NCBI RefSeq assembly: GCF_009914755.1
Contig: NC_060931.1
Source: the human T2T-CHM13v2.0 reference genome, Homo sapiens
Reading direction: 5' to 3' (one strand)
Length of the DNA stretch: 64,000 bases
In this document: one piece after another, positions 1 through 44,968 of the stretch
How positions within the stretch are numbered: the first letter of the stretch is position 1
How the letters are laid out: each line of letters starts with the position of its first letter
Made by a program: the position numbers and the translations under genes
Notes under the pieces: generated by a model
What the model was told of the DNA's origin: nothing
Seen by the model: the letters and a program-made list of their open reading frames with translations, nothing else
Database searches by the model: none

Positions 1-2384
1 CTTGATAGCTTTAACACTCCTCCACTCCTCTCCAGCCCAGTGTCTTAAATCCACACTAACATCCTCCTTCTAGATGATGCGCCCACCTCCCACCTGCTCT
101 CCCAGACTCCTGTGGTCTTGCCCTCCCTTCAATGAACTTGCCAGCTGCTGAAGGGATCATGGCCCTAAAATGCAAATCATAGAATACTTAAAAGAATTTC
201 TAAACCTCCCAGGATTCACCCAGGCTCCTGGCATGGCTTACAGGCTGTAACCCATGATGCAAACCAGGCTTGCCTGTCCTGACAGCCTCATCTCTCTATG
301 CGGGGCACTGTCCTAAGTGGTAGAATTAATTACAGCAGTGAATGAAACAAAGTTCCTTCGCCGATGGGATTTGCCATTTTGTAGGGAAGTACAGACAACA
401 AACAAACAAATATATGAGATGATGTGGTATACATGTGAAAGACAGAAAAGCAAGATAGGAGACAGGGAGTGATGTGGGATTCTGTGTCAGCTGGGATGGT
501 TAAGGAAGGCCATTCTAATGAGATCACATTTGGGCAGAAGCCTGAAGGAAGAGGCTGCTTGCCACCCCACACAGCAAGGGTGTGCCACAGTCATCTGCTC
601 TCCTGGCAGTTCCGAGAGCAGGCTGGGCTCCCCTAGGCCTCTGGGCCTGTGCACGCACACTTCCTCTCCCTGCAGCATTCCATACCATCAAGAACTGAGA
701 TCTTATCTCATGTGCAGGTAATAATCACACATGCCAAAATTTCACGGATGTTGGTAGAAGACATGAGGCTCCTGGGTCAGAGAAGAAGGACAGTTTCTTC
801 ACTTCCAGTAATAGTAACAGCCAGAGTGGCAGCATTTTTGCACTGGTTTTCTGACCCCAGGTGACCCAACACCACCATTCAGTGAGATAGATGAAGTCTA
901 AATAAGAGAGTAAACCATTGTGGAAGGCATTGAAACCATAAAAAGTAAGATGAGAACAGTTGAGAAAAAGACACTTAGAATTGACTGCAACATTTACAGA
1001 GTTTTGGTGTCAGCAGAGGCCTTAGTATTAGGTGATGGAAGCCCGCCACTGTAAGGTTCCCGCCCTTGAGAATCTGCTCAGGACCAGCTGGTGAGATGGA
1101 CGTGTCAGCAGATAAATTGCAAGGCTGTGCTCTCAAGCTCTAGTGCACAAAGGACTATGGGAGCCCATAGAATGGGTAGGAGGAGGCCATTCAAGCTAAA
1201 TCTTGACAGATGGGCAGGAATTCATCAGAAAGACTTAAATATTGGTCTTGAAAATAGCACTGCATACAAGAAAAAAACACATGCATTTATGAGGCAAGAG
1301 TCCCTGAAGTTTCACATTTACACAAAATGATGTGTGTCTTTTGGTGGGGGAAGCGGATGTGAAATTCCCTACAGATAAGCCCAGGCTAGCTGACCAGATG
1401 AGGTGAGATTTCTTTCAGGTACTGCCTAAGCAATCAATGGCCAGAGAGGGCTGCGGGGCTGGGCTGCTGGGCTGCGAGGCTGCTGGGTGCTGAGGGAGCA
1501 GGGGGAATGTTCCCTGGGGTGTGGCTGGCCATGGTGCTCGCCATCCTGGAACAAATCAACTGAGGCGCAAATCTGCAGCACCTTTGCCACAGCCAGAATC
1601 CACGGTGGTTCCTCCGTGAGCACATGCCCTGAATTCCACCTGGCCTGTGCGTCATGCTCAGTTGGCAGGATTTCAGAACCAATGCTGCCAACACCAGACT
1701 CTCCACGTGCGGAGCAATTTATGAAACCCTGGGGCCAGCAATGGCCACCTTTGCATCCTGGAGTTAGGATGACCCTGACACATCCCAGCCCCAGCATACA
1801 CCACCGCGCTGCCCTGAGGCTGGGCTCTACCTTTTGAGAGCTACTGAGCTCTGCAGAGATGTGGGTGAAGGGAGCCACAGACATATCAGTCTGGCAGGGG
1901 CTTAGAGTCACTGCTCTAACTGCCTATCTGGCAGGTGAAGAAACAGAGGCCAGGGCAGGCAAGCCCTGACCAGGGCAGTGTACCTGCTTGGTAGACGAGT
2001 TCTCTCCTTCCCCCAGTGCAGTGCCTACTGTCTCTCTTTAGCTGTGCCTAGCTGGGTTGGGGTCTTTTCTCTGGGCTTCCCTAACCACTCCTGCTGACCC
2101 CTATCTGAGCTCCAACTTCTCCCTGGAAACCACGCATTAACCTATTACCTCCTCGCTACACTGTGAGTTCCTGAGAGGGGCTTGCGTCTTTCTCATCTGG
2201 CAGTTGGCCAGAGCCCCATAAGTACACTCAAGTTGAATGAGCGATTAAATGGGTGACTGCAACAAGCCTGGGCAGGAATGGGTAGTGCTCTTTTTGGTCA
2301 TGGCTTCTTAAACACAAACAAGGTGGGCTTCATTGGGCCTTATTTCAGAAAAAAATATTCGTCTTATTATAAAAAGTAATGTTT

Positions 2385-24542: not shown

Positions 24543-25642
24543 CTAAAGCAAAAATCAGTAAGAGTTAATAATGAACAATTAATTTTAATACTAAATTTCA
24601 AATCCATGATGAAGAAACTGAGATTACATTCAACCTTATGGTGCTGAGAAATGGCCTTCATGATATACTTTATTAAAAAAGTCAGTCAGCATAGTAAACA
24701 TTGCTGTTAGTGTTACAAGCACAGTGCCTGAGTTACAACAGTAAATAAGACTCAGTCATCCCCTCAGAAGTCTAAGATTTTCACACTAGAAACCAAAGTT
24801 TTATACAGCCTTCAACATAACCTCACCTCAGCCACTTACTCCCAGGACCATACCTTAGACCTTGTCATCACCAATAACTGTATCCTTCCATACTCTGTTT
24901 TGATCATCCCATTTTCCCATAACACCTCTTTCCAGCTCACTGTCTCTGGCACCCCAATCCTAAAACTCCTTTGACCCCACCAAGACCTACAATCTGATCC
25001 TACTGCTTTCTTACTGTATCACCACTTCACTAATGTCCTCACTTATTTTAATCAATTTCTGTTCTAAGGGCCTTCATTATCATCTCTTGCACATACTCTC
25101 AACTCACTTATCCTTCTTCTGCAAAACTCTAACTTTAGTTAAACCAAATTCTCCATGAGATGGATAATAAAATGGTGAAAAGCACACACCAGAATGGTAT
25201 CTCTTTTAAATTTCCTAACCACAAATTTTAAGAATGCTCACTATATTAAGAAAAAGGCAACAACAAAAATCTCCCAAGACACCTTATCACTATTAACTCT
25301 GTACTAAATCCTTTGCTATTTATTACAAAGAATGGGATGGTTTTAATATTTTAGAATAAATGGTTCTAATGGGTGGTTTTAATATTTTAGATCATAAGTC
25401 TAATCTTGTTTGATCTTCCTTCAAATTAATGACCAGGGTAGGAATAATATAAAATTTGTATCTTTTGGATGCTATATATGCTAAACATATGCGTACACTC
25501 AAGGATAGGAGCTCTTACATATCTGCAGCAAAAATCTTTCTAACCTCAGAATGGATTTTGGAGCTTATCACAGAAGCATTTTGTTTTTTAAATAAACCCA
25601 ATTAGTTTTTAATTATTTTGCCAGCCACCTTTTAGTCATTTA

Positions 25643-25722
25643 TTAGGTTGGTGCAAAAGTTATTATGGTTTTTGCTATTTATTTTAATGATAAAAACCAC
25701 AATTATTTTTGTACCAACCTAA
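25643..25722. mobile_element. MADE1 (Hsmar1 MITE), 80 bp
   Basis: TIRs ttaggttggtgcaaaa...tttttgtaccaacctaa flanked by TA target duplications. Confidence 0.95.
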
Positions 25723-26707
25723 TATTTAGGATAAATACCAGTGATCTCTTAGGAGATATAGAAGCTATGCTATATAGCTTGCCCACTTGGTCAAGACAAC
25801 ACTGAATGAATACTTAGGATTAGAGAACCAAAAATAATTACTAATTACATGAACACGGAAGTACATGCATTTTGTATCTGAGCTCTCTGCTGCTACTTGT
25901 CCTTTTAAAAACCGTAGCTCAAAGAGAAAAGGCTAGAAATATAGCTTATATTTTCTGCACTGTGGAAGTACTCCCCCCTTTTTACTGCTGTACATCTGCT
26001 GTACATTCTGCTGCAGGTAGACATTTTCTAAACGCTTGCTAGAAATACAGTGTTTTTTGGAAAACTGATGAGTAACATGAGGTTATATCGCATGTTAAAT
26101 AATTTCTCTTTACGGAAAAGTTCACAACTTTGATCAATATATGTCAAATCCTCCTAATTTTCAGGTATTTTCTTCCTTCCAAAGTCTTTTTTTTTCGTAG
26201 TTATACTCTTAAATCCACTTTGATGGCTTGAGGCCATTCTTATATTTCAAAAGCAGGAACTTTTCTGAAAATGATGCACAAAGTAACCTAGGTTGAAGGA
26301 ACGTGGGGGGAATTCTGGTCCCTTCAGATAGTATTTGCTCTACTCAGGACTCTAGTCACACTGCACTCTAAGCGAATGGTGCCACCTGGAGCTCTGCAAT
26401 GCACAACCTGCAGCTGCCTAGGGCAGCTCTACTCCTCCCAACAATTCACAATATGAGTCATAGATTTTTAGAATTTGGGATACCCTAATTTTGTTTGGAT
26501 TCATTTTCTGGTATTCTCAATTTTCCACATTGCCTTGAAACCTTAAACTCCTGCTACTTAACAAAAAAAAAAGTGCTATATTTACTTCAAAAGAGAATTG
26601 AAGTAGATTTAAATTTTCATAACTGAAATACTCCTAGAAACACCTTAGCACAGAATTGAGAATATTGCTAAAAGGGCTTGTCCTCATTAATAGTACCTAA
26701 AAATTAA

Positions 26708-31989: not shown

Positions 31990-32720
31990 GAGCTCAATCT
32001 TTCAGCAAGTGGTGATGGCTCTATTTTCAAAATACATTTGCAATCTGACCACTTGTACTGCCTCCTGATCTGAACTACCATCACCTTTTGCCTGAATTTT
32101 GCACTAACAGCCTTCTAAATGATCTCTCTGCTTCTGCCCTTGCCCCAGCTTCAGTCTGTTATCAACACAACAGCCAAGACAATCTTTTAAAAATGTAAGG
32201 CAGAAAATGTTATCCTTTGCTCAAAACCCTCCAATGGCTTTTGAGCTCTCTATGAATAAAAACCAAAGTTCATATAAAGGCCTGCAAGATCCTTTCTTCC
32301 CTTATATTTCTGACCTCATGTTGCTACTTTTTCCTTTACCTAATCTGTATACACAAACTGCTTTCCATGCGATACCTTTAATGACACGGGATAAACTCTT
32401 CCTTCAGGACCTTTGCACTGGCTATTTCCTCTGCCTGGAATACATGCTTCACTCCCTCACTTCCATAGCTTCCTGTTCCAGTATGACCTTCTCAGAGAGA
32501 CCTTCCCCTCACCACACTATATCAAATAACAGCACTCCTACCCCGCACTACCTATTCCCTCTACTCTATTTCTGCTCTGTTCTAATTACCACTGCTTGAC
32601 ACAGTACTTAATTTGTCTGTCTTTCCCTAGAATAGAAACTTGAAGAGGTCAGGGGCTTCGTTTTGTTCAAGGTCACACACACTCAGCAACTGGTAGTAGA
32701 TAATATTCAATGCAGATTTG
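31990..32720 (+). mobile_element. L2 3' fragment
   Basis: cctttgctcaaaaccctccaatggc...caggacctttgcactggctatttcctctgcctggaa... Confidence 0.75.
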
Positions 32721-35197: not shown

Positions 35198-35653
35198 GCT
35201 AGTTTAGAATGATGCCAAACTGATCTGAAATAAAAATCTGATCATGTCCTTCCCATTTAAAGGAATTTCCTCAATTGTTTTTCAACCTAAATTAAACAAA
35301 AAATGCTCCAACTTCTTAATTTGGCATAAAAGGCATGGCTGATCGATCCTCAACTTTATCTTTCTAGATAGATTTATCTGCAGTCTATTCACTGCCAGGT
35401 ACTGTATGATTCTGTCACATTATACTGCTTACTGTTCCTGAAACATACCATGTATTTATGTCTTAAATGTATATGCTTCTTCTTCTGGGAATGCCCTGTC
35501 TCTGATTAGCTCATCTTTTAAGGCCCTACCCAATTCCCTGTGGTAGAACTCATGATTCTTCTCTTGAGCTATCATAGACATTAACTCTATTATATATGAA
35601 CTCTACTATAGGCATTTTTCTTGTGTAACTTGCTTTCTAAAAAATAAAATGGG

Positions 35654-37656: not shown

Positions 37657-38258
<602 letters not shown>

Positions 38259-38849
38259 TAAAAAGAGTTTGGAGCCTTAACTTCTATTGCTAGACCATGC
38301 TAATTCTGAGGATTCTACTGGAGAATACTAGTATTCACCTGGTTTATGAGTGTTGTTTACACGTTTCTAGTTGCAGGATCTTCATTGCTATTTAATTTCA
38401 TCATTAATCTGAAATCATCTATTTAAATTTCTTTCTGTCCAAGGTTTAGTTTATCAAAGTGATAACTGAAATCTTCAAAAATAGATATAAAAGTATATTA
38501 TGTATGAGTGTTTACATGCAAAAGAAATGTATGCTGGTTTTAAGTCAAATGATCATTCAGCACTTAAAATGAAATATTATAGCACGTTTGCCTTTACAAT
38601 CAAAAGATTAGATGCCTAGAGCCAAGGTATGATTTTTATGAGTCAAAGTCCGAAATGTTTACTAAAGTTATTCATTTCAAAAAAGTATTGTTTTTGATGG
38701 TGGTATTTCAGTTTATTCCCACTGGGAAATAAAGTCAGTTACAAAGTGCTTCAGTTTCACTCTATCTCCCTTTGCTTCTAATGTACAATAGTAGAAAATT
38801 CTAAATAGCCTGCCAAGATAATTCCATAATCCTTAAAAATTTGGATTAT

Positions 38850-40189: not shown

Positions 40190-40650
40190 TCATCAATTCT
40201 CAATGCGTGGTCTGTGGACCCCTGAAAGCTCCCAAGGCTCTTTCAGGAGTTCATGAAGGTAAAACATTTTCCTAACGATACTAAGACATTATTTGCCTTT
40301 TACACTGTGCTGACATTTGTACTGATGAAGCAGATAAACTGGTGGGGAAAACTGCCGGGTTTAATAAGAATCAGGAAGAATACCAAACTCTATTTCACTG
40401 CCACATACTTGCAGTTAAAAACAAAAAACCAAAAACAAAAAAGAACAAAAAACCCCCACCAGTTTTACTTAAGAATGTCTGATGAAGCAGTAAAAATTTT
40501 ATTAAACCTTGACCCTTGAGTTCTCTTGTCAGTAGGATAAAATGGGAAATGCAAATAAAGACTTTTGTTGCATACCAAATACAATGGTTGTCTCCAGAGA
40601 ATGCATTTAAGCAACTGAGTTGTAAGCTGAACTAGTGGCTTTTTTTTGTA
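40190..40650 (+). mobile_element. Charlie1-like hAT fragment
   Basis: gtggtctgtggacccctg...gatactaagacattatttgcc... Confidence 0.65.
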
Positions 40651-40659
40651 ACCACCAAA

Positions 40660-41960
40660 TTTCTCCCATCTTCACAGTCAAACAGCGGTTTATGCTGTCT
40701 TCACTTTCTTACCACACATTCATTCAGCCTACTAAAATCTGGCTTTTTGATTTTACTGAAACTGCTCTTGCTAACTAGTCCTTATTTTATTAACTAGTCC
40801 TTATTTTACTTTACCATTCTATTGCACCTTACGTTTTGGGGTACTCTTTTCTTGAAATTCTAATAGTGATGCCAAGGCATTATTTCCCTCAATTTTCCTA
40901 ACCATTCCTTCTCTCCTTTGCAGGCAGATATCTGCTATATCTGCAGCCCAAACTCATATTTTAAATTCTAGATCCATATATATAGCTGTATCCTATAGGA
41001 TACCTCCAAAAGATCTAAAGAGACCACAAACTCAATACATCTGAAACCTTTGACTTCCCATAAAATCTGCTCCTCCTCCTCTTAATGACATTACCTTGAA
41101 TATGCTAATGGCAACGAAGTCAGAAAGACAGCAGTCATCTTAGGGTCCTCCCTCTTTGTTACCTTCCATATATATTCTAATTTGTAACCCCCTTTTGTAA
41201 ACCCCTTCAGTCCTACTGAAACTAATTTTAGGCCCTCATAATTCCTCAATCAACAGATTTCCCTTCCTCCAATTCTAGCCTTTCCAATTCATCCTTTTAG
41301 AAATTTTCATTTTGTCGGCAGTTAGAGGGATGGATTGGAAAGGTCAGAATTGGAGGGAGAAATCGATTGATTGAGGAATTATGAGTGCCTAAAATTAGTC
41401 GTATCATTGACTTGTTTAAAGCCTTTAAGTTCCCATCCCCTATGGCAGGGATTCTGGGCTTGAATGGAATAAACACTCCAATATTCCATACCCTGCACAT
41501 ATGCATTTTCCTAAGGAAAGGGCCCAGATTCCCAAAGATTAACCCCAGAAGCAGCCGACCTCTGAAATCTTTTCAGAACAATCTCAAACCGTACCCTCCA
41601 ACCTAGCATATATTCCAACTAACCCCCAATTACTTTTAAGTTCTCATACAGGGTTATGCTGCTTCAACATTTCCTTCCACTGAACATAAGATTCCTTCTG
41701 CCTAGAAAGCCACTCCCCAAGTGAACCAGTACCCATCCTTCAAGTGTTCTCTCAGCTATGAAGTCCTCCCTAGTTCCTCCAAGCAAATGCTCTCTCCCTC
41801 ATTTCTTCTACTATTCTTTGCATACACCTTTATCACAGTTTATTACATGGCATTTTTGTATTTTGTATGTCCTTCATCCTTAATAGATCATGAGAAAAAG
41901 ACCATGTTTTATTCATGTGGTATGCTAGTGTTTAGTACAGATCTGGTATAAAATAGTCAA
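40660..41960 (+). mobile_element. Degenerate L2 fragment hosting the inverted repeat
   Basis: actgaaactgctcttgctaa, aaactcaatacatctgaaac, ttccttctgcctagaa motifs; boundaries approximate. Confidence 0.6.
41221..41399. repeat. Long imperfect inverted repeat (arms 41221-41300 and 41322-41399, 21-nt loop)
   Basis: Hand alignment: 68 Watson-Crick pairs, 6 G-U (+ strand), 4 mismatches, one 2-nt bulge. Confidence 0.95.
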
Positions 41961-43533
41961 ATATTTACCACACCATTAACAATGTGTAGTCTTTTCATAA
42001 AAGGCTCTCCTGTGTAATAACAAGCTGTTCAAACTGAAAGTATTTCTGTAAGATGCTTAAAAAGGGATATTTTTCAAAATACATCAAAACACGAATGAAC
42101 TTATCACTAGTGCTTGAAATATTAAGGAAAAAGCTAAGTCTACAGTTGTTTAAAAACTTGACAAAAAATATAAGCACAGATATAAACAACTGCCTCTTCA
42201 TTTAAGTGGAAATCTAAATTATTAGTTATACATTTAATTATAATCCTCAATGAGACTAAATCTAGATATAAGACTTTCTTAACGTTCATATTTGATTAGC
42301 CTCGTTAATGAGATTTTCCTCTTGCAATTTTTAAATGCTTTAATCATGGTTTTCTTTATACTTAAATCTGGACTTAGGTTTAAAAAAATCAAGTATATTT
42401 ATTTATGCGTCTTTCAAGTAGTCATTTGTGTGAAGTCAGCACTACTTCAGTTTTCAGAAAACACACAAAATGTTCAGTGAATGGTGAAATTGCCTAACCC
42501 CTTGCGCGGTTACAATGGTCCAAGTAGGAAATCACATTAGGTACCCATCAGAGAAACTGAGTTTCTACGCTGCTTTTAAAAACATCCTCGGTAGGTTATT
42601 TAGAACAGGAAATTGAAAGTTCTTATTCTTCTTCACCACTCTATCACTAAGGAAAAGGGCGAAAAAGCTATGGATGTAAATGCTGCTGTCTATAAACACA
42701 ACTTGCCTGCAGAAATATGTAGTGGGCCACGAAGTTTGAAGGAAGCCCGCAGTGCCTGGTATATTCACCAACTCCTCCAAGTAACTGATCATTGCCAAGG
42801 TCGAATTAATAAGCGTTCTTTGATGTTAATGATTGTGAGTGTTCTCAGGAAAGGACTAAAAGCTGACTTTCTAAACAGGATGTTGTTTGGAAATACCCCA
42901 AACAAACTCGATGTCCATTCCTAACGTGTTATTAAGTGAACCGATCTGACTCGATGCGTTTTGTTAAAAGGACTTTCTTTAGTTTCCCTGGCCCACAGTT
43001 TATTTTTTTACTATTTTTAACTCGGAGCCCATCTTAAAAACAAATTAAGAACGGAATGCTCGCCAAATCACGTCTACAAGACAAAATCGGCTTCCCAGGG
43101 AGCTAGACCTCGAGTGGGCACCGGCAGGGACGTAACCGCTGAGCCTCTCCGCAGAGCGCGACGCCGGCCGCCGGGTTTCGGTTAGACCGCAGCAGGAAGT
43201 TTTCCCTTCCTCTGCGGGAGGCAGTGGAGCCAAGGGGAAATTTGAACTCCCACTCCACGGGGACACCCAGAGGGGAGCTCCGGTGTGGGAGGGTGGCTCC
43301 CCTGGGAGCCAGGCGGCCGAGGAGCTCGTGATTCGACGCCCGCCGCGGCGTCTCCGCCCCGCGCGGCCCAGGCCGCGGCCTCCCTGCCCTCCCTGCCGTC
43401 CACTCCCAGTCCCGGGGCGGCGGCCTCAAAGCCCGCGCGGCAGGGCTGCGTCCCGGCTCGCAGGTCCCCGTCTCCCCGCCTAGGGCGCCGCGCCGAGCGG
43501 CAGGCGGGCCTGGCCGGCGCGGGCTGCACTCAC

Positions 43534-43605: not shown

Positions 43606-43872
43606 CTGAGGAAAGGAGGGAGAGAGAGTCAGGACGACGGGGCGGAGGAGGGGACCGACGAGACCAGAGCAGCCCGGTGGCGAGGAAGGGCAGGCGGGGC
43701 TGGCGCGCTGGCCGGGCTCGGAGGCGGGCCCGGGCGGCCGTGGGGCGGGGCGGGGCGGAGCGGCGGCGGTTGAGCTGCTGGCTGAGACTCTGGGGCGGAA
43801 ACGGAGTGGGGCGGCTGGGGAGGCGAGGGGCGGGCCGGGGCGGAGACCGGGAGGCTTCTCCTCAGGCCGCAC

Positions 43873-43923
43873 CTGGCCGAGTCGACTGATCCGCTGGCGA
43901 ACCAAGTAGATGTTGGGCGCCAT
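43873..43923 (-). CDS. SYPL1: SYPL1 coding exon 1 (long isoform, MAPNIYLVRQRISRLGQ)
   Basis: ATG (cat at 43921-43923) in strong Kozak context (A at -3, G at +4); 17 codons; donor CAG|GTGCGG at 43872; matches the recalled human SYPL1 N-terminus. Confidence 0.92.
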
Positions 43924-44968
43924 ACTGCGTGCGCCGCGCCCCCTTCCCTGCGGTTCAGCCCCTGGCACTCGGTCTTCCCCTGCGCACGCGTGTACGCGTG
44001 CGCTCGTTGGGCCCGCGCCGCGCTTCCGGACCCGCGCGACTGCGAAGAGCCCTGACCCGGGGGCGCCCACGCCCGCTCCTGCGCAGCTTGGGGGCGCTGG
44101 CCTCAGAGACACCCTCACTTGACCCCGAGCTCACCACAGCTGAGCTCACTACACCGAAGCTGACCTCTCCTTCCCTTAACAGATCTCAACTTTTTTATGA
44201 ATTTATAATGTATTGGCACAGATGAAGTTGTGTTTCAAGGCATGTGTTAGGGGCCTTTGATTAAAATTGCAAAACAACAGACTTCTGGCTACCGTGCTGT
44301 GGGGTGCCTCGAAAGTGTGAATCACCAAATATTCGTATGGAAATTAGGTTTATTTTCAAAGTTACCATCGCAGCCATGGTTGAAAAATGAAGTAAGTTTA
44401 TACCTAAAAGGAAAGGCGTGGCCGGACAGGCCCTCGGTGACCTACACTTTCACCTCTTCTACGCTGTCGGTCGACAGTCCTCTTTTTAAGGCATCGTTGG
44501 TATCTTTCTTCAAGAAGCTGACCCCTTTAAGATTCGGCTTAGGTGATACTTTCCTGTTGGCACGCAGTTACGGGAGCCCCAAGGTAGTGTGATCTCCTTC
44601 CTGGCTTCTTCAGTACCTGGAAAGTTCCTGGACAGCTGGAATGTGGTCATATTCGTGTATATGAAAAACCAGCTTCCAAGGACTTACCTGAATTTCAAGC
44701 ACGAATATGATTTGCAGGCTACTTGCCACTGAGGTTATTCCGTCAGGGTTGACAACTGTTATTGAACGTCCTTGTAGTAAGCGAACCCTTTCTCTTTCGA
44801 GACCTATCTCCTTGTTTGCTGTCCAGAGAGTGCAAAAAATACATTTCATTTTCTATGCAGACAGAGACAATCTTTATGTTTATCTTGGCTCCCGTTCCTC
44901 AGTCCCCAGCACAGTCAGTGCTCAATGAGCACCTAATGGCATATCTCATTTTGAAATAACATTAAGAA

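What the first reader, a model, noticed from the sequence alone, without database searches (positions are those of the whole stretch)
41221..41399. Unexplained ~78-bp fold-back hairpin in SYPL1 intron 2 with strand-biased G-U pairing
Seen in sequence: 41221-41300 pairs with 41399-41322 around a 21-nt loop. The hand alignment gives 68 Watson-Crick pairs, 6 G-U, only 4 true mismatches and one 2-nt bulge. It is not an Alu pair, and no MITE TIR/TSD signature is recognisable. The left arm reads as degenerate L2, and the right arm interrupts the L2-like context and carries three CpGs (41316, 41364, 41400). Six of the ten non-Watson-Crick positions are G-U on the + strand (antisense to SYPL1); the same positions are A-C mismatches in the SYPL1 pre-mRNA. 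Established: A-C mismatches in long dsRNA are favoured ADAR sites, and long hairpins can feed Drosha/Dicer or MDA5/PKR. Inference: a local inverted duplication that could act as a structured RNA (pri-miRNA/endo-siRNA precursor, editing substrate, splicing modulator) or a DNA cruciform. The wobble bias could also simply reflect ordinary transition mutations, and a very recent or non-reference insertion cannot be excluded.
Basis: partly seen in the sequence, partly recalled or inferred. Interest (0 to 1): 0.8.

Follow-up and report, generated by a model that had tools for sequence, protein, structure and literature searches.

The report
Old inverted duplication in SYPL1 intron
A real 179-base fold-back in a SYPL1 intron is most likely an old, one-off inverted copy of the neighbouring decayed repeat DNA, an ordinary by-product of DNA replication with no sign of a function so far.

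Summary
The hairpin is real. Window 41221-41300 pairs with 41399-41322 around a 21-nt loop: 68 Watson-Crick pairs, 6 G-U, 4 mismatches and a 2-nt bulge on the + strand. RNA folding gives z = -16 (+ strand) and -14 (SYPL1 sense strand) against shuffles.

It is single-locus. A BLAST and an exhaustive 28-mer scan of the whole T2T genome find only the two arms. A true palindromic MITE in the same window gives 1291 candidates with the same tool. No Rfam family reaches its threshold.

It lies inside a decayed ancient LINE-tail repeat (recalled as L2). The two flanks of that repeat are colinear and both on the + strand. The left arm shares the repeat's strong C>G skew. The right arm has the opposite skew, beyond all 672 control windows, so the right arm is the inverted copy.

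The arms differ at 10 of 78 sites, so the event is tens of millions of years old. It is not a recent insertion or an assembly artefact.

The "strand-biased G-U" is 6 against 2 transitions (p = 0.29), which is not significant.

Best reading: a neutral relic of a template-switch inverted duplication, a class already counted in tens of thousands in primate genes. It is too long (78 bp) for a canonical pri-miRNA. It is a plausible but untested ADAR substrate. Cross-species, editing and small-RNA data could not be consulted.

The parts
41221..41300 (+). Left arm. It sits in the orientation of the host repeat and is the inferred source of the duplication.
   Evidence: Pairs with 41399-41322. Its (G-C)/78 is -0.269, inside the host range of -0.295 to +0.064.
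41301..41321 (.). 21-nt spacer / apical loop.
   Evidence: Unpaired in the + strand MFE. In the sense-strand MFE the loop widens to 33 nt.
41322..41399 (-). Right arm: the inferred inverted copy of the left arm.
   Evidence: 87% identical to the reverse complement of the left arm (68 of 78). Its (G-C)/78 is +0.282, 5.6 sd from the host mean and beyond all 672 control windows.
40936..41213 (+). Left part of the decayed ancient LINE-tail repeat (recalled as L2) that hosts the hairpin.
   Evidence: nhmmer with my 74-segment profile, columns 66-342: E 0.0046 in the whole window with --max and E 2.6e-4 in a small target set.
41400..41680 (+). Inner right flank. It has host-like composition but is not assignable by homology.
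   Evidence: Composition is G 0.139 and C 0.288, like the host. There is no significant profile match. It holds the motif pair 41430/41467 used to fish the repeat family.
41681..41940 (+). Right (3') part of the same host repeat, colinear with the left part.
   Evidence: nhmmer profile columns 760-1096: E 2e-5 in the whole window with --max. The alignment is shown.

Best explanation
The hairpin is the relic of one mutational event. A stretch of about 80 nt of a decayed ancient LINE-tail repeat in the SYPL1 intron was copied in reverse-complement orientation and laid down 21 nt downstream of itself. The most likely cause is a short-range template switch of the replicating polymerase (the four-point model, in which fragment 2->3 is copied in reverse complement). 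A snap-back templated repair of a break would give the same product.

The event happened tens of millions of years ago. Since then the two arms have drifted apart by ordinary substitutions: 8 transitions, 2 transversions and one 2-nt indel.

SYPL1 is transcribed from the - strand, so its pre-mRNA can fold a stem of about 78 bp with eight mismatches. This is inferred, not shown. Such a stem is a plausible low-level ADAR substrate and is removed with the intron. I commit to 'no selected function'.

Shown here: the structure, its uniqueness in the genome, its position inside an older repeat, the polarity of the arms, and the arm divergence.
Inferred: the template-switch mechanism, the age in years, and neutrality.
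For: - Structure: z -16.0 and -14.2 against 200 shuffles each.
- Single locus, by BLAST: a BLAST of the 179 nt, and of each arm with its flank, against the 3.1-Gb genome finds only itself and the other arm.
- Single locus, by exhaustive scan: a scan for a 28-mer of the arm with up to 3 mismatches finds 1 forward and 1 reverse site, which are the two arms, and 0 control sites.
- Positive control: a real palindromic MITE at 25636-25729 gives 1291 candidates and 78 scored matches with the same tool.
- Host repeat: 40936-41213 matches profile columns 66-342 and 41681-41940 matches columns 760-1096. Both are on the + strand and colinear, with E 0.0046 and 2e-5.
- Polarity: the host and its family profile have C>G on the + strand. 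The left arm fits this. The right arm is +0.282 against a control maximum of +0.064 over 672 windows.
- Sharp ends: the 15 nt outside each arm do not pair, and the nhmmer self-match stops at 41218/41400.
- Divergence: 10 of 78 sites, JC 0.141, 95% CI 0.066-0.265. Transitions are 8 of 10, not different from 2/3 (p 0.51). G-U split is 6:2 (p 0.29).
- The class is common. PMC10710096 (Results read) infers 53,666 template-switch mutations in genic regions on the primate-to-human lineage. Of these, 31,007 made new RNA stems, and only 57 of the 6,054 miRNA-sized ones are miRBase loci.
- Length is within the reported range: fragments up to 83 nt, 90 nt in complex sequence, and 318 bp at most (bioRxiv 10.1101/2021.11.26.470150, passages).
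Against: - No outgroup genome could be examined, so the state before the event was never seen.
- Neither arm matches the host-repeat profile. For the left arm plus loop, 32 of 100 shuffles score as well; for the right arm, 58 of 100. The power is close to nil, because the flanks themselves score only 7-15 bits over about 270 nt.
- The detectable left-flank homology ends at 41213, 8 nt before the arm. That would also fit an insertion or replacement of the whole palindrome.
- The two flank matches appear only with nhmmer's filters off (--max). With default filters they were not listed.
- 78 nt is in the long tail of reported template-switch fragments.
- No microhomology at the junctions is visible after this much decay.
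- Neutrality is an inference from the base rate and from the lack of any signal. No editing, small-RNA, CLIP or conservation data were seen.
Confidence: 0.68

Rival explanations
1. The hairpin is an orphan palindromic DNA transposon (MITE) that inserted as a whole into the old repeat.
For: The whole element is a terminal inverted repeat. Detectable host homology stops 8 nt before the left arm. A TA dinucleotide lies just inside each end (41223-41224 and 41396-41397; read), as a Tc1/mariner-type duplication would.
Against: No other copy exists in 3.1 Gb. BLAST gives 1 candidate, which is the hairpin itself. The 28-mer with up to 3 mismatches hits only the two arms. A real MITE in the same window gives 1291 candidates. 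The 8 nt flanking the arms do not match each other (CTACTGAA against CGTATCAT). The left arm's strand composition fits the host, although this would happen by chance in half of all insertions.
Confidence: 0.05
2. The hairpin is a functional small-RNA precursor (a young miRNA or a hairpin endo-siRNA source), processed from the SYPL1 intron or from an antisense transcript.
For: The hairpin is very stable on both strands. It is intronic and sense to an expressed host. This is the context in which 81 of 99 intragenic template-switch-born miRNAs sit (PMC10710096). Sub-threshold Rfam matches are to long-hairpin MIR families.
Against: All 30 Rfam matches that overlap it are far below gathering (best 64 bits against 200). 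They occur on both strands, so they reflect generic stem structure only. The whole window has 0 matches at gathering. The 78-bp stem is outside the 30-55 range used for miRNA-like hairpins and far from the preferred 35 bp (PMC10710096). No MIR gene is in the hub's RefSeq table. The base rate is 0.9% even for well-sized hairpins.
Confidence: 0.05
3. The hairpin is a selected double-stranded RNA element of the SYPL1 pre-mRNA. It could be an ADAR-editing or dsRNA-binding-protein site, or a modulator of nearby alternative exons (42707-42784, 38339-38472).
For: The stem persists in 579 nt of sense context in both the MFE and the centroid structure. It has six A-C mismatches in the sense RNA, a configuration I recall as favoured by ADAR. 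Alternative exons lie 1.3 kb and 2.7 kb away (hub table).
Against: The longest uninterrupted sense-strand helix is 20 bp. Three of the six mismatched adenosines have a 5' G, a neighbour I recall as disfavoured. The substitution pattern between the arms is indistinguishable from neutral. The hairpin loops out no exon. No paper links SYPL1 with editing or inverted repeats. Low-level editing alone would not show function.
Confidence: 0.08
4. The hairpin comes from two ancient repeat copies (L2-type) that inserted head to head, as proposed for some L2-derived miRNA hairpins. Alternatively it is an ancient palindrome kept similar by gene conversion between the arms.
For: The locus is inside L2-like sequence. 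Conversion between close inverted repeats is known (recalled).
Against: Both flanks are in the same (+) orientation and colinear on one profile. No minus-strand profile match lies at or next to the hairpin. Independent copies of a family whose members barely align pairwise could not be 87% alike. The similarity ends sharply at both outer ends.
Confidence: 0.04
5. The hairpin is an assembly artefact or a very recent, private insertion in the T2T genome.
For: Only one assembly could be examined.
Against: Fold-back artefacts and fresh duplications give identical arms. These arms differ at 10 of 78 sites plus an indel.
Confidence: 0.01

Closest known systems
Template-switch mutations (four-point model) that create hairpins in primate genes (Loytynoja & Goldman 2017, PMC5453318; Monttinen et al. 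2023, PMC10710096)
   Same: A reverse-complement copy of adjacent sequence made in one step. It is intronic, sense to a host gene, lies in unique or old-repeat DNA, has sharp ends, and acquired point mutations afterwards.
   Different: The 78-nt arm is longer than the typical event (28 to 83 nt quoted; 90 nt is the longest in complex sequence among gnomAD MNVs). The ancestral state was not observed here, so membership is inferred.
Palindromic MITEs such as the mariner-derived element at window 25636-25729 (I recall this family as MADE1, the source of the mir-548 genes)
   Same: A short fold-back with near-perfect arms and a small loop, located in an intron.
   Different: That element has over a thousand relatives in the genome. 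The SYPL1 hairpin has none and no target-site duplication.
L2-derived miRNA hairpins (mir-28/mir-151/mir-95 type; recalled from Smalheiser & Torvik 2005, not read here)
   Same: A hairpin built out of LINE-2 tail sequence in an intron.
   Different: No Rfam match to those families at E <= 10. It lies in one host element in one orientation, not two opposed copies. The stem is twice miRNA size.
Inverted Alu pairs as ADAR/MDA5 substrates (recalled general knowledge)
   Same: An intramolecular dsRNA in a pre-mRNA made by two inverted copies of the same sequence.
   Different: The arms are 78 bp rather than about 300 bp. It is a unique sequence. The longest perfect sense-strand run is 20 bp. It is intronic only, so it is unlikely to reach cytoplasmic sensors.

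Membership tests
Rfam miRNA precursor families (MIR7723, MIR7533, MIR7504 and others) | Covariance-model score at or above the family's gathering score | tested here: not met
   The best match is 64 bits against 200. All 30 overlapping matches are below gathering and occur on both strands. There are 0 gathering-level matches in the whole window.
Canonical animal pri-miRNA hairpin | Stem of about 35 bp (30-55 in the screen of PMC10710096) with single-stranded basal flanks | tested here: not met
   The stem has 78 paired positions and continues as duplex about 40 bp below any 35-bp apical unit.
Canonical animal pri-miRNA hairpin | Discrete ~22-nt products; Drosha/Dicer dependence | not testable with these tools
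   No small-RNA or CLIP data are available. No MIR gene is in the hub's RefSeq table.
MITE / palindromic DNA transposon | Many related copies dispersed in the genome | tested here: not met
   1 BLAST candidate, which is the hairpin itself. The 28-mer with up to 3 mismatches hits only the two arms. The control MITE gives 1291 candidates. Only one 28-mer, covering 41235-41262, was scanned exhaustively.
MITE / palindromic DNA transposon | Target-site duplication flanking the terminal inverted repeats | tested here: not met
   The 8 nt outside the arms differ (41213-41220 against 41400-41407). A TA/TA just inside the ends cannot be told apart from the palindrome itself.
Template-switch (four-point) inverted duplication | One fragment is the reverse complement of sequence lying close by at the same locus, with sharp ends | tested here: met
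   68 of 78 positions are complementary and the spacer is 21 nt. There is no pairing in the 15 nt outside, and the self-match is limited to 41218-41400.
Template-switch (four-point) inverted duplication | The copy interrupts or replaces pre-existing sequence; the source stays in the original orientation | tested here: met
   The flanks are colinear on one old-repeat profile. The left arm has the host's strand skew and the right arm the opposite, beyond 672 of 672 control windows. This is a compositional test, not a homology test.
Template-switch (four-point) inverted duplication | Parent sequence without the copy, seen in outgroup species or an inferred ancestor | not testable with these tools
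   No primate or mammal genome other than the window's own is held.
LINE-2 (L2) host element (family name recalled, not given by any tool) | Significant colinear match to a profile of the family | tested here: met
   This holds for the flanks only: E 2e-5 (41681-41940) and 0.0046 (40936-41213) with a profile of 74 genomic segments, nhmmer --max. The same profile finds 31990-32669 at E 4e-110.
LINE-2 (L2) host element | The left arm itself aligns to the family | tested here: inconclusive
   32 of 100 dinucleotide shuffles score as well. Power is very low at this level of decay.
Head-to-head pair of old repeats | Two copies of the family in opposite orientation on either side of the loop | tested here: not met
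   Both flank matches are on the + strand and colinear. No minus-strand match lies at 41.2-41.7 kb.
ADAR substrate / editing-enriched dsRNA | Long intramolecular duplex in a transcribed RNA | tested here: met
   The predicted sense-strand hairpin is -98 kcal/mol and is kept in a 579-nt context. Transcription is taken from the hub's SYPL1 annotation. This is prediction only.
ADAR substrate / editing-enriched dsRNA | Observed A-to-I sites | not testable with these tools
   No editing database is available. Searches for SYPL1 + 'A-to-I' found 0 papers. SYPL1 + ADAR found 7 papers, all gene or protein lists judging by title and abstract start.

The most novel reading that the evidence does not exclude
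The hairpin could be a primate-born, template-switch-made 78-bp stem in the first intron of a broadly expressed gene that is actively used. It would then be a non-Alu ADAR or Dicer substrate giving site-selective editing or hairpin-derived small RNAs. That would be a dated example of a long dsRNA element arising in a single mutational step and being co-opted.
Probability: 0.06. Interest if true: 0.5.

Novelty: new member of a known kind. Interest (0 to 1): 0.17.

Why it matters
As it stands it matters little. It is one more of the tens of thousands of hairpins that template switching has left in primate genes, and nothing in the sequence points to selection.

It does have some value as a clean, unusually long example. 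It is single-copy, sits inside a datable old repeat, and its polarity can be read from strand composition alone.

If primate alignments and editing or small-RNA data later showed use, it would illustrate one-step birth of a long dsRNA element. It also shows that a G-U 'strand bias' read from a handful of sites should be tested before it is interpreted.

Tried and rejected
- Direct blastn and nhmmer of 40500-42300 against the 64-kb window found only the region itself and the other arm. So the old-repeat context cannot be seen by pairwise search.
- A first 27-copy profile missed the locus apart from a marginal hit: E 0.019 at 41681-41830. In-silico variants with one arm, both arms, or loop plus arm deleted gave only negative-score, non-significant matches, so they could not decide which piece is extra.
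- nhmmer returned nothing on very short targets. I replaced it with my own profile Smith-Waterman with shuffles, which was not significant for either arm.
- A 25-mer of the right flank (41430-41454) with up to 3 mismatches occurs at only 2 other genome sites. One of them (chr1, locus L023) shares 39 of 51 positions, but no family emerged.
- The genome search does not take DNA alignments or covariance models.
- I considered transcription-associated mutation asymmetry as an explanation of the 6:2 G-U split. Passages of PMC2927911 give A->G > T->C on the non-template strand of mammalian introns, and C->T over G->A near the start site. That would favour G-U in the sense RNA, the opposite of what is seen. 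With 8 events neither direction means anything.
- The supplement of PMC10710096 that is held as text (1 file) has no SYPL1 or chr7 entry. Its datasets of genome-wide events were not available to me and may list this locus.
- A crude census of inverted repeats covered 273 kb (the window plus 80 fetched loci). Apart from Alu-sized pairs and palindromes under 75 nt, it found only this hairpin and the 84-nt MITE. The sample is too small to give a rate.

Full report
**Observation**

The sequence at 41221-41399 is a fold-back, as described. The repeat finder gives two adjoining arm pairs: 41221-41261/41359-41399 (41 nt, 93%) and 41263-41299/41323-41359 (37 nt, 84%). A global alignment of the left arm with the reverse complement of the right arm has 78 aligned columns. 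Of these, 68 are identical and 10 are substitutions, with one 2-nt indel (CC at 41261-41262, left arm only). The loop is 41301-41321.

On the + strand this makes 68 Watson-Crick pairs, 6 G-U and 4 mismatches. On the - strand, which is the SYPL1 sense strand, it makes 68 Watson-Crick pairs, 2 G-U and 8 mismatches.

| Fold | MFE (kcal/mol) | z-score | Shuffles as good |
|---|---|---|---|
| RNA, + strand | -107.7 | -16.0 | 0 of 200 |
| RNA, - strand | -98.0 | -14.2 | 0 of 200 |
| DNA | -58.2 | -14.0 | 0 of 200 |

The stem is kept in both the MFE and the centroid structure when 200 nt of flank are added on each side of the sense strand.

By the hub's table, the site is intron 1 of the selected transcript. 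It is intron 2 only for isoforms that begin at 43873-43970.

**The 'strand bias'**

Of the 10 substitutions, 8 are transitions. Six give G-U on the + strand and two give G-U on the - strand. The two-sided binomial p is 0.29. Eight transitions out of ten is not different from a 2:1 expectation (p 0.51).

Passages of PMC2927911 report that in mammalian introns the non-template strand has A->G above T->C, and near the start site C->T above G->A. That would favour wobble pairs in the sense RNA, the opposite of the 6:2 seen here. With eight events, nothing can be read into either direction. The hook of the finding is therefore chance-level.

**Is it a member of a repeat or RNA family?**

- Rfam at E <= 10 over 40700-41900 gives 33 matches, and 30 of them overlap the hairpin. 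All are far below gathering (best is MIR7723, 64 bits against 200). They are mostly plant long-hairpin MIR models and match on both strands, so they score generic stem structure.
- The whole window has 0 matches at gathering.
- In the window's own 3.1-Gb genome, BLAST of the 179 nt, of the left flank plus arm, and of the right arm plus flank finds only the query and the opposite arm. Each search had 1 first-look candidate.
- That tool skips very common words, so I added an exhaustive scan. A 28-mer of the arm with up to 3 mismatches occurs once forward and once reverse, which are the two arms. The reversed-pattern control gives 0.
- As a positive control I used a genuine palindromic MITE that the repeat finder showed at 25641-25724 in the same window. 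It gives 1291 candidates and 78 scored matches at 77-89% identity.
- The 8 nt outside the arms do not match each other.

The hairpin is therefore not a recognisable MITE. It is a one-off.

**Context**

Pairwise searches see no repeat around the hairpin. I therefore built a profile.

1. Two short motifs of the right flank (41430 and 41467), used as a gapped pattern, hit the genome 714 times against 321 for the control. There is a clear class with a 7-nt gap.
2. I fetched 34 such copies (30 loci, of which 14 belong to the short-gap class of 3-9 nt, and 20 more). The 27 that passed a core-profile filter were aligned.
3. I refined the profile and widened it with 29 further loci, found by BLAST with the best copy.

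The final profile has 74 segments and 1100 columns. I recognise it as the 3' tail of LINE-2, but that name is my recollection and no tool gave it.

| Window position | Strand | Profile columns | E-value (whole window, filters off) |
|---|---|---|---|
| 31990-32669 | + | 311-1069 | 4e-110 |
| 304-553 | - | 825-1100 | 1.5e-33 |
| 35309-35533 | + | 598-848 | 6.5e-6 |
| 41681-41940 | + | 760-1096 | 2e-5 |
| 40936-41213 | + | 66-342 | 0.0046 |

The last two rows are the flanks of the hairpin. With default filters these two were not listed. Both lie more than 200 nt from the fishing motifs, so the choice of motif does not bias them. They are on the same strand and colinear. Between them, 417 profile columns face 467 window bases.

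The hairpin therefore lies inside one decayed old element. This also excludes the 'two opposed L2 copies' origin. No minus-strand match lies at or beside the hairpin.

**Which arm is the copy?**

Homology cannot tell. For the left arm plus loop, 32 of 100 dinucleotide shuffles score as well against the expected profile range. For the right arm it is 58 of 100. Deletion variants gave only non-significant scores. This is expected, because the flanks themselves reach only 7-15 bits over about 270 nt.

Strand composition does tell. The host copy and the family profile both have G at about 0.11-0.15 and C at about 0.25-0.30 on the + strand. Across 672 windows of 78 nt outside the hairpin, (G-C)/78 averages -0.153 (sd 0.078, range -0.295 to +0.064). 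The left arm is -0.269, inside that range. The right arm is +0.282, which is 5.6 sd away and beyond every control window.

This separates 'left is the source' from 'right is the source'. It does not by itself exclude a foreign palindrome that happened to land in the matching orientation. The absence of any other copy is what argues against that.

**Age**

Ten differences in 78 sites give K = 0.128 (Jukes-Cantor 0.141, 95% CI 0.066-0.265), or about 0.07 per arm. I converted this with primate divergences that I recall: human-macaque about 6-7% and human-marmoset about 11-12% in total. These figures were not checked here.

The point estimate falls near the stem of anthropoid primates. The interval runs from the ape/Old-World-monkey ancestor to before the primate radiation. 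Gene conversion between the arms would make the event older than it looks. A fresh insertion or a fold-back assembly artefact would have identical arms and is excluded.

**Mechanism**

The product is exactly what the four-point template-switch model yields when the fragment copied in reverse complement overlaps the sequence already replicated (PMC5453318, passages). The product is a reverse-complement copy of adjacent sequence, with a short spacer and sharp ends, inside unique or old-repeat DNA.

PMC10710096 (abstract, Results and Methods passages read) gives these figures for genic regions on the primate-to-human lineage:

- 53,666 such events were inferred.
- 31,007 created a new RNA stem.
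- 6,054 were miRNA-sized (stem 30-55).
- Only 57 of those are miRBase loci.
- Fragments of 28 and up to 83 nt are quoted.

The bioRxiv paper 10.1101/2021.11.26.470150 (passages) reports events up to 318 bp, and 90 bp in complex sequence. A 78-nt fragment is long but within range.

A snap-back templated repair of a double-strand break would leave the same scar (recalled: polymerase-theta end joining). I cannot tell the two apart.

**Function**

Nothing in the sequence indicates one.

- The stem is more than twice the length preferred for Drosha substrates.
- No MIR gene is annotated here in the hub's table.
- In the sense RNA the longest uninterrupted helix is 20 bp. The six A-C mismatches sit at 41265, 41289, 41295, 41297, 41322 and 41344, and three of these adenosines follow a G. 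I recall that neighbour as disfavoured by ADAR.
- Some promiscuous editing of such a duplex in an expressed pre-mRNA is plausible, but it would not show a role.
- Full-text searches found no description of the element:
  - SYPL1 with 'inverted repeat': 0 papers.
  - SYPL1 with 'A-to-I': 0 papers.
  - SYPL1 with ADAR: 7 papers, all gene or protein lists by title and abstract start.
  - SYPL1 with hairpin: 7 papers, unrelated by title and abstract start.
- The supplementary file of PMC10710096 that is held (1 file) does not mention SYPL1. Its genome-wide datasets were not available to me and might list the event.

**Verdict**

This is a real, statistically extreme, single-copy hairpin. Its origin is well explained as an old template-switch inverted duplication of L2-like intronic DNA. 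The strand-bias argument and the recent-insertion worry do not. The functional ideas remain untested and a priori unlikely. It is a new instance of a known and very common kind, so interest is low.

The decisive checks are a primate alignment, Dfam annotation, and editing and small-RNA tracks.

Noticed in passing
window 25636-25729: An 84-nt palindromic element with 33-nt arms (88% complementary) and an 18-nt spacer. It has 1291 first-look relatives across the genome at 77-89% identity. I recall this family as the mariner-derived MITE MADE1, the source of the mir-548 genes. No Rfam family reaches gathering here.
   Followed up: partly
window 31990-32669 (+), 304-553 (-), 35309-35533 (+): Three other copies of the same ancient LINE-tail repeat (recalled as L2) were found with my profile, at E 4e-110, 1.5e-33 and 6.5e-6. 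The first two were also used to refine the profile.
   Followed up: partly
window 41428-41478 and locus L023:1497-1541 (-) (G000 C1:70893863-70893887 region): An unexplained local similarity of 39 of 51 positions, including a 25-mer with 2 mismatches. That 25-mer with up to 3 mismatches occurs at only 3 sites in the genome. The chr1 locus does not match the LINE-tail profile.
   Followed up: partly
window 37795-37835 and 38085-38125: An inverted repeat, 71% complementary over 41 nt with 249 nt between the arms, inside a 484-nt masked stretch. It looks Alu-like. It could be a partial inverted Alu pair 200 nt from the alternative exon 38339-38472, and it would be a more conventional dsRNA/editing candidate in the same intron.
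   Followed up: no
window 43343-43369 and 43743-43769: A GC-rich inverted repeat (27 nt, 81%) that brackets the SYPL1 first exon and promoter region. A looser blast pairs 43343-43480 with 43639-43769 at 64%. It is probably CpG-island low complexity.
   Followed up: no
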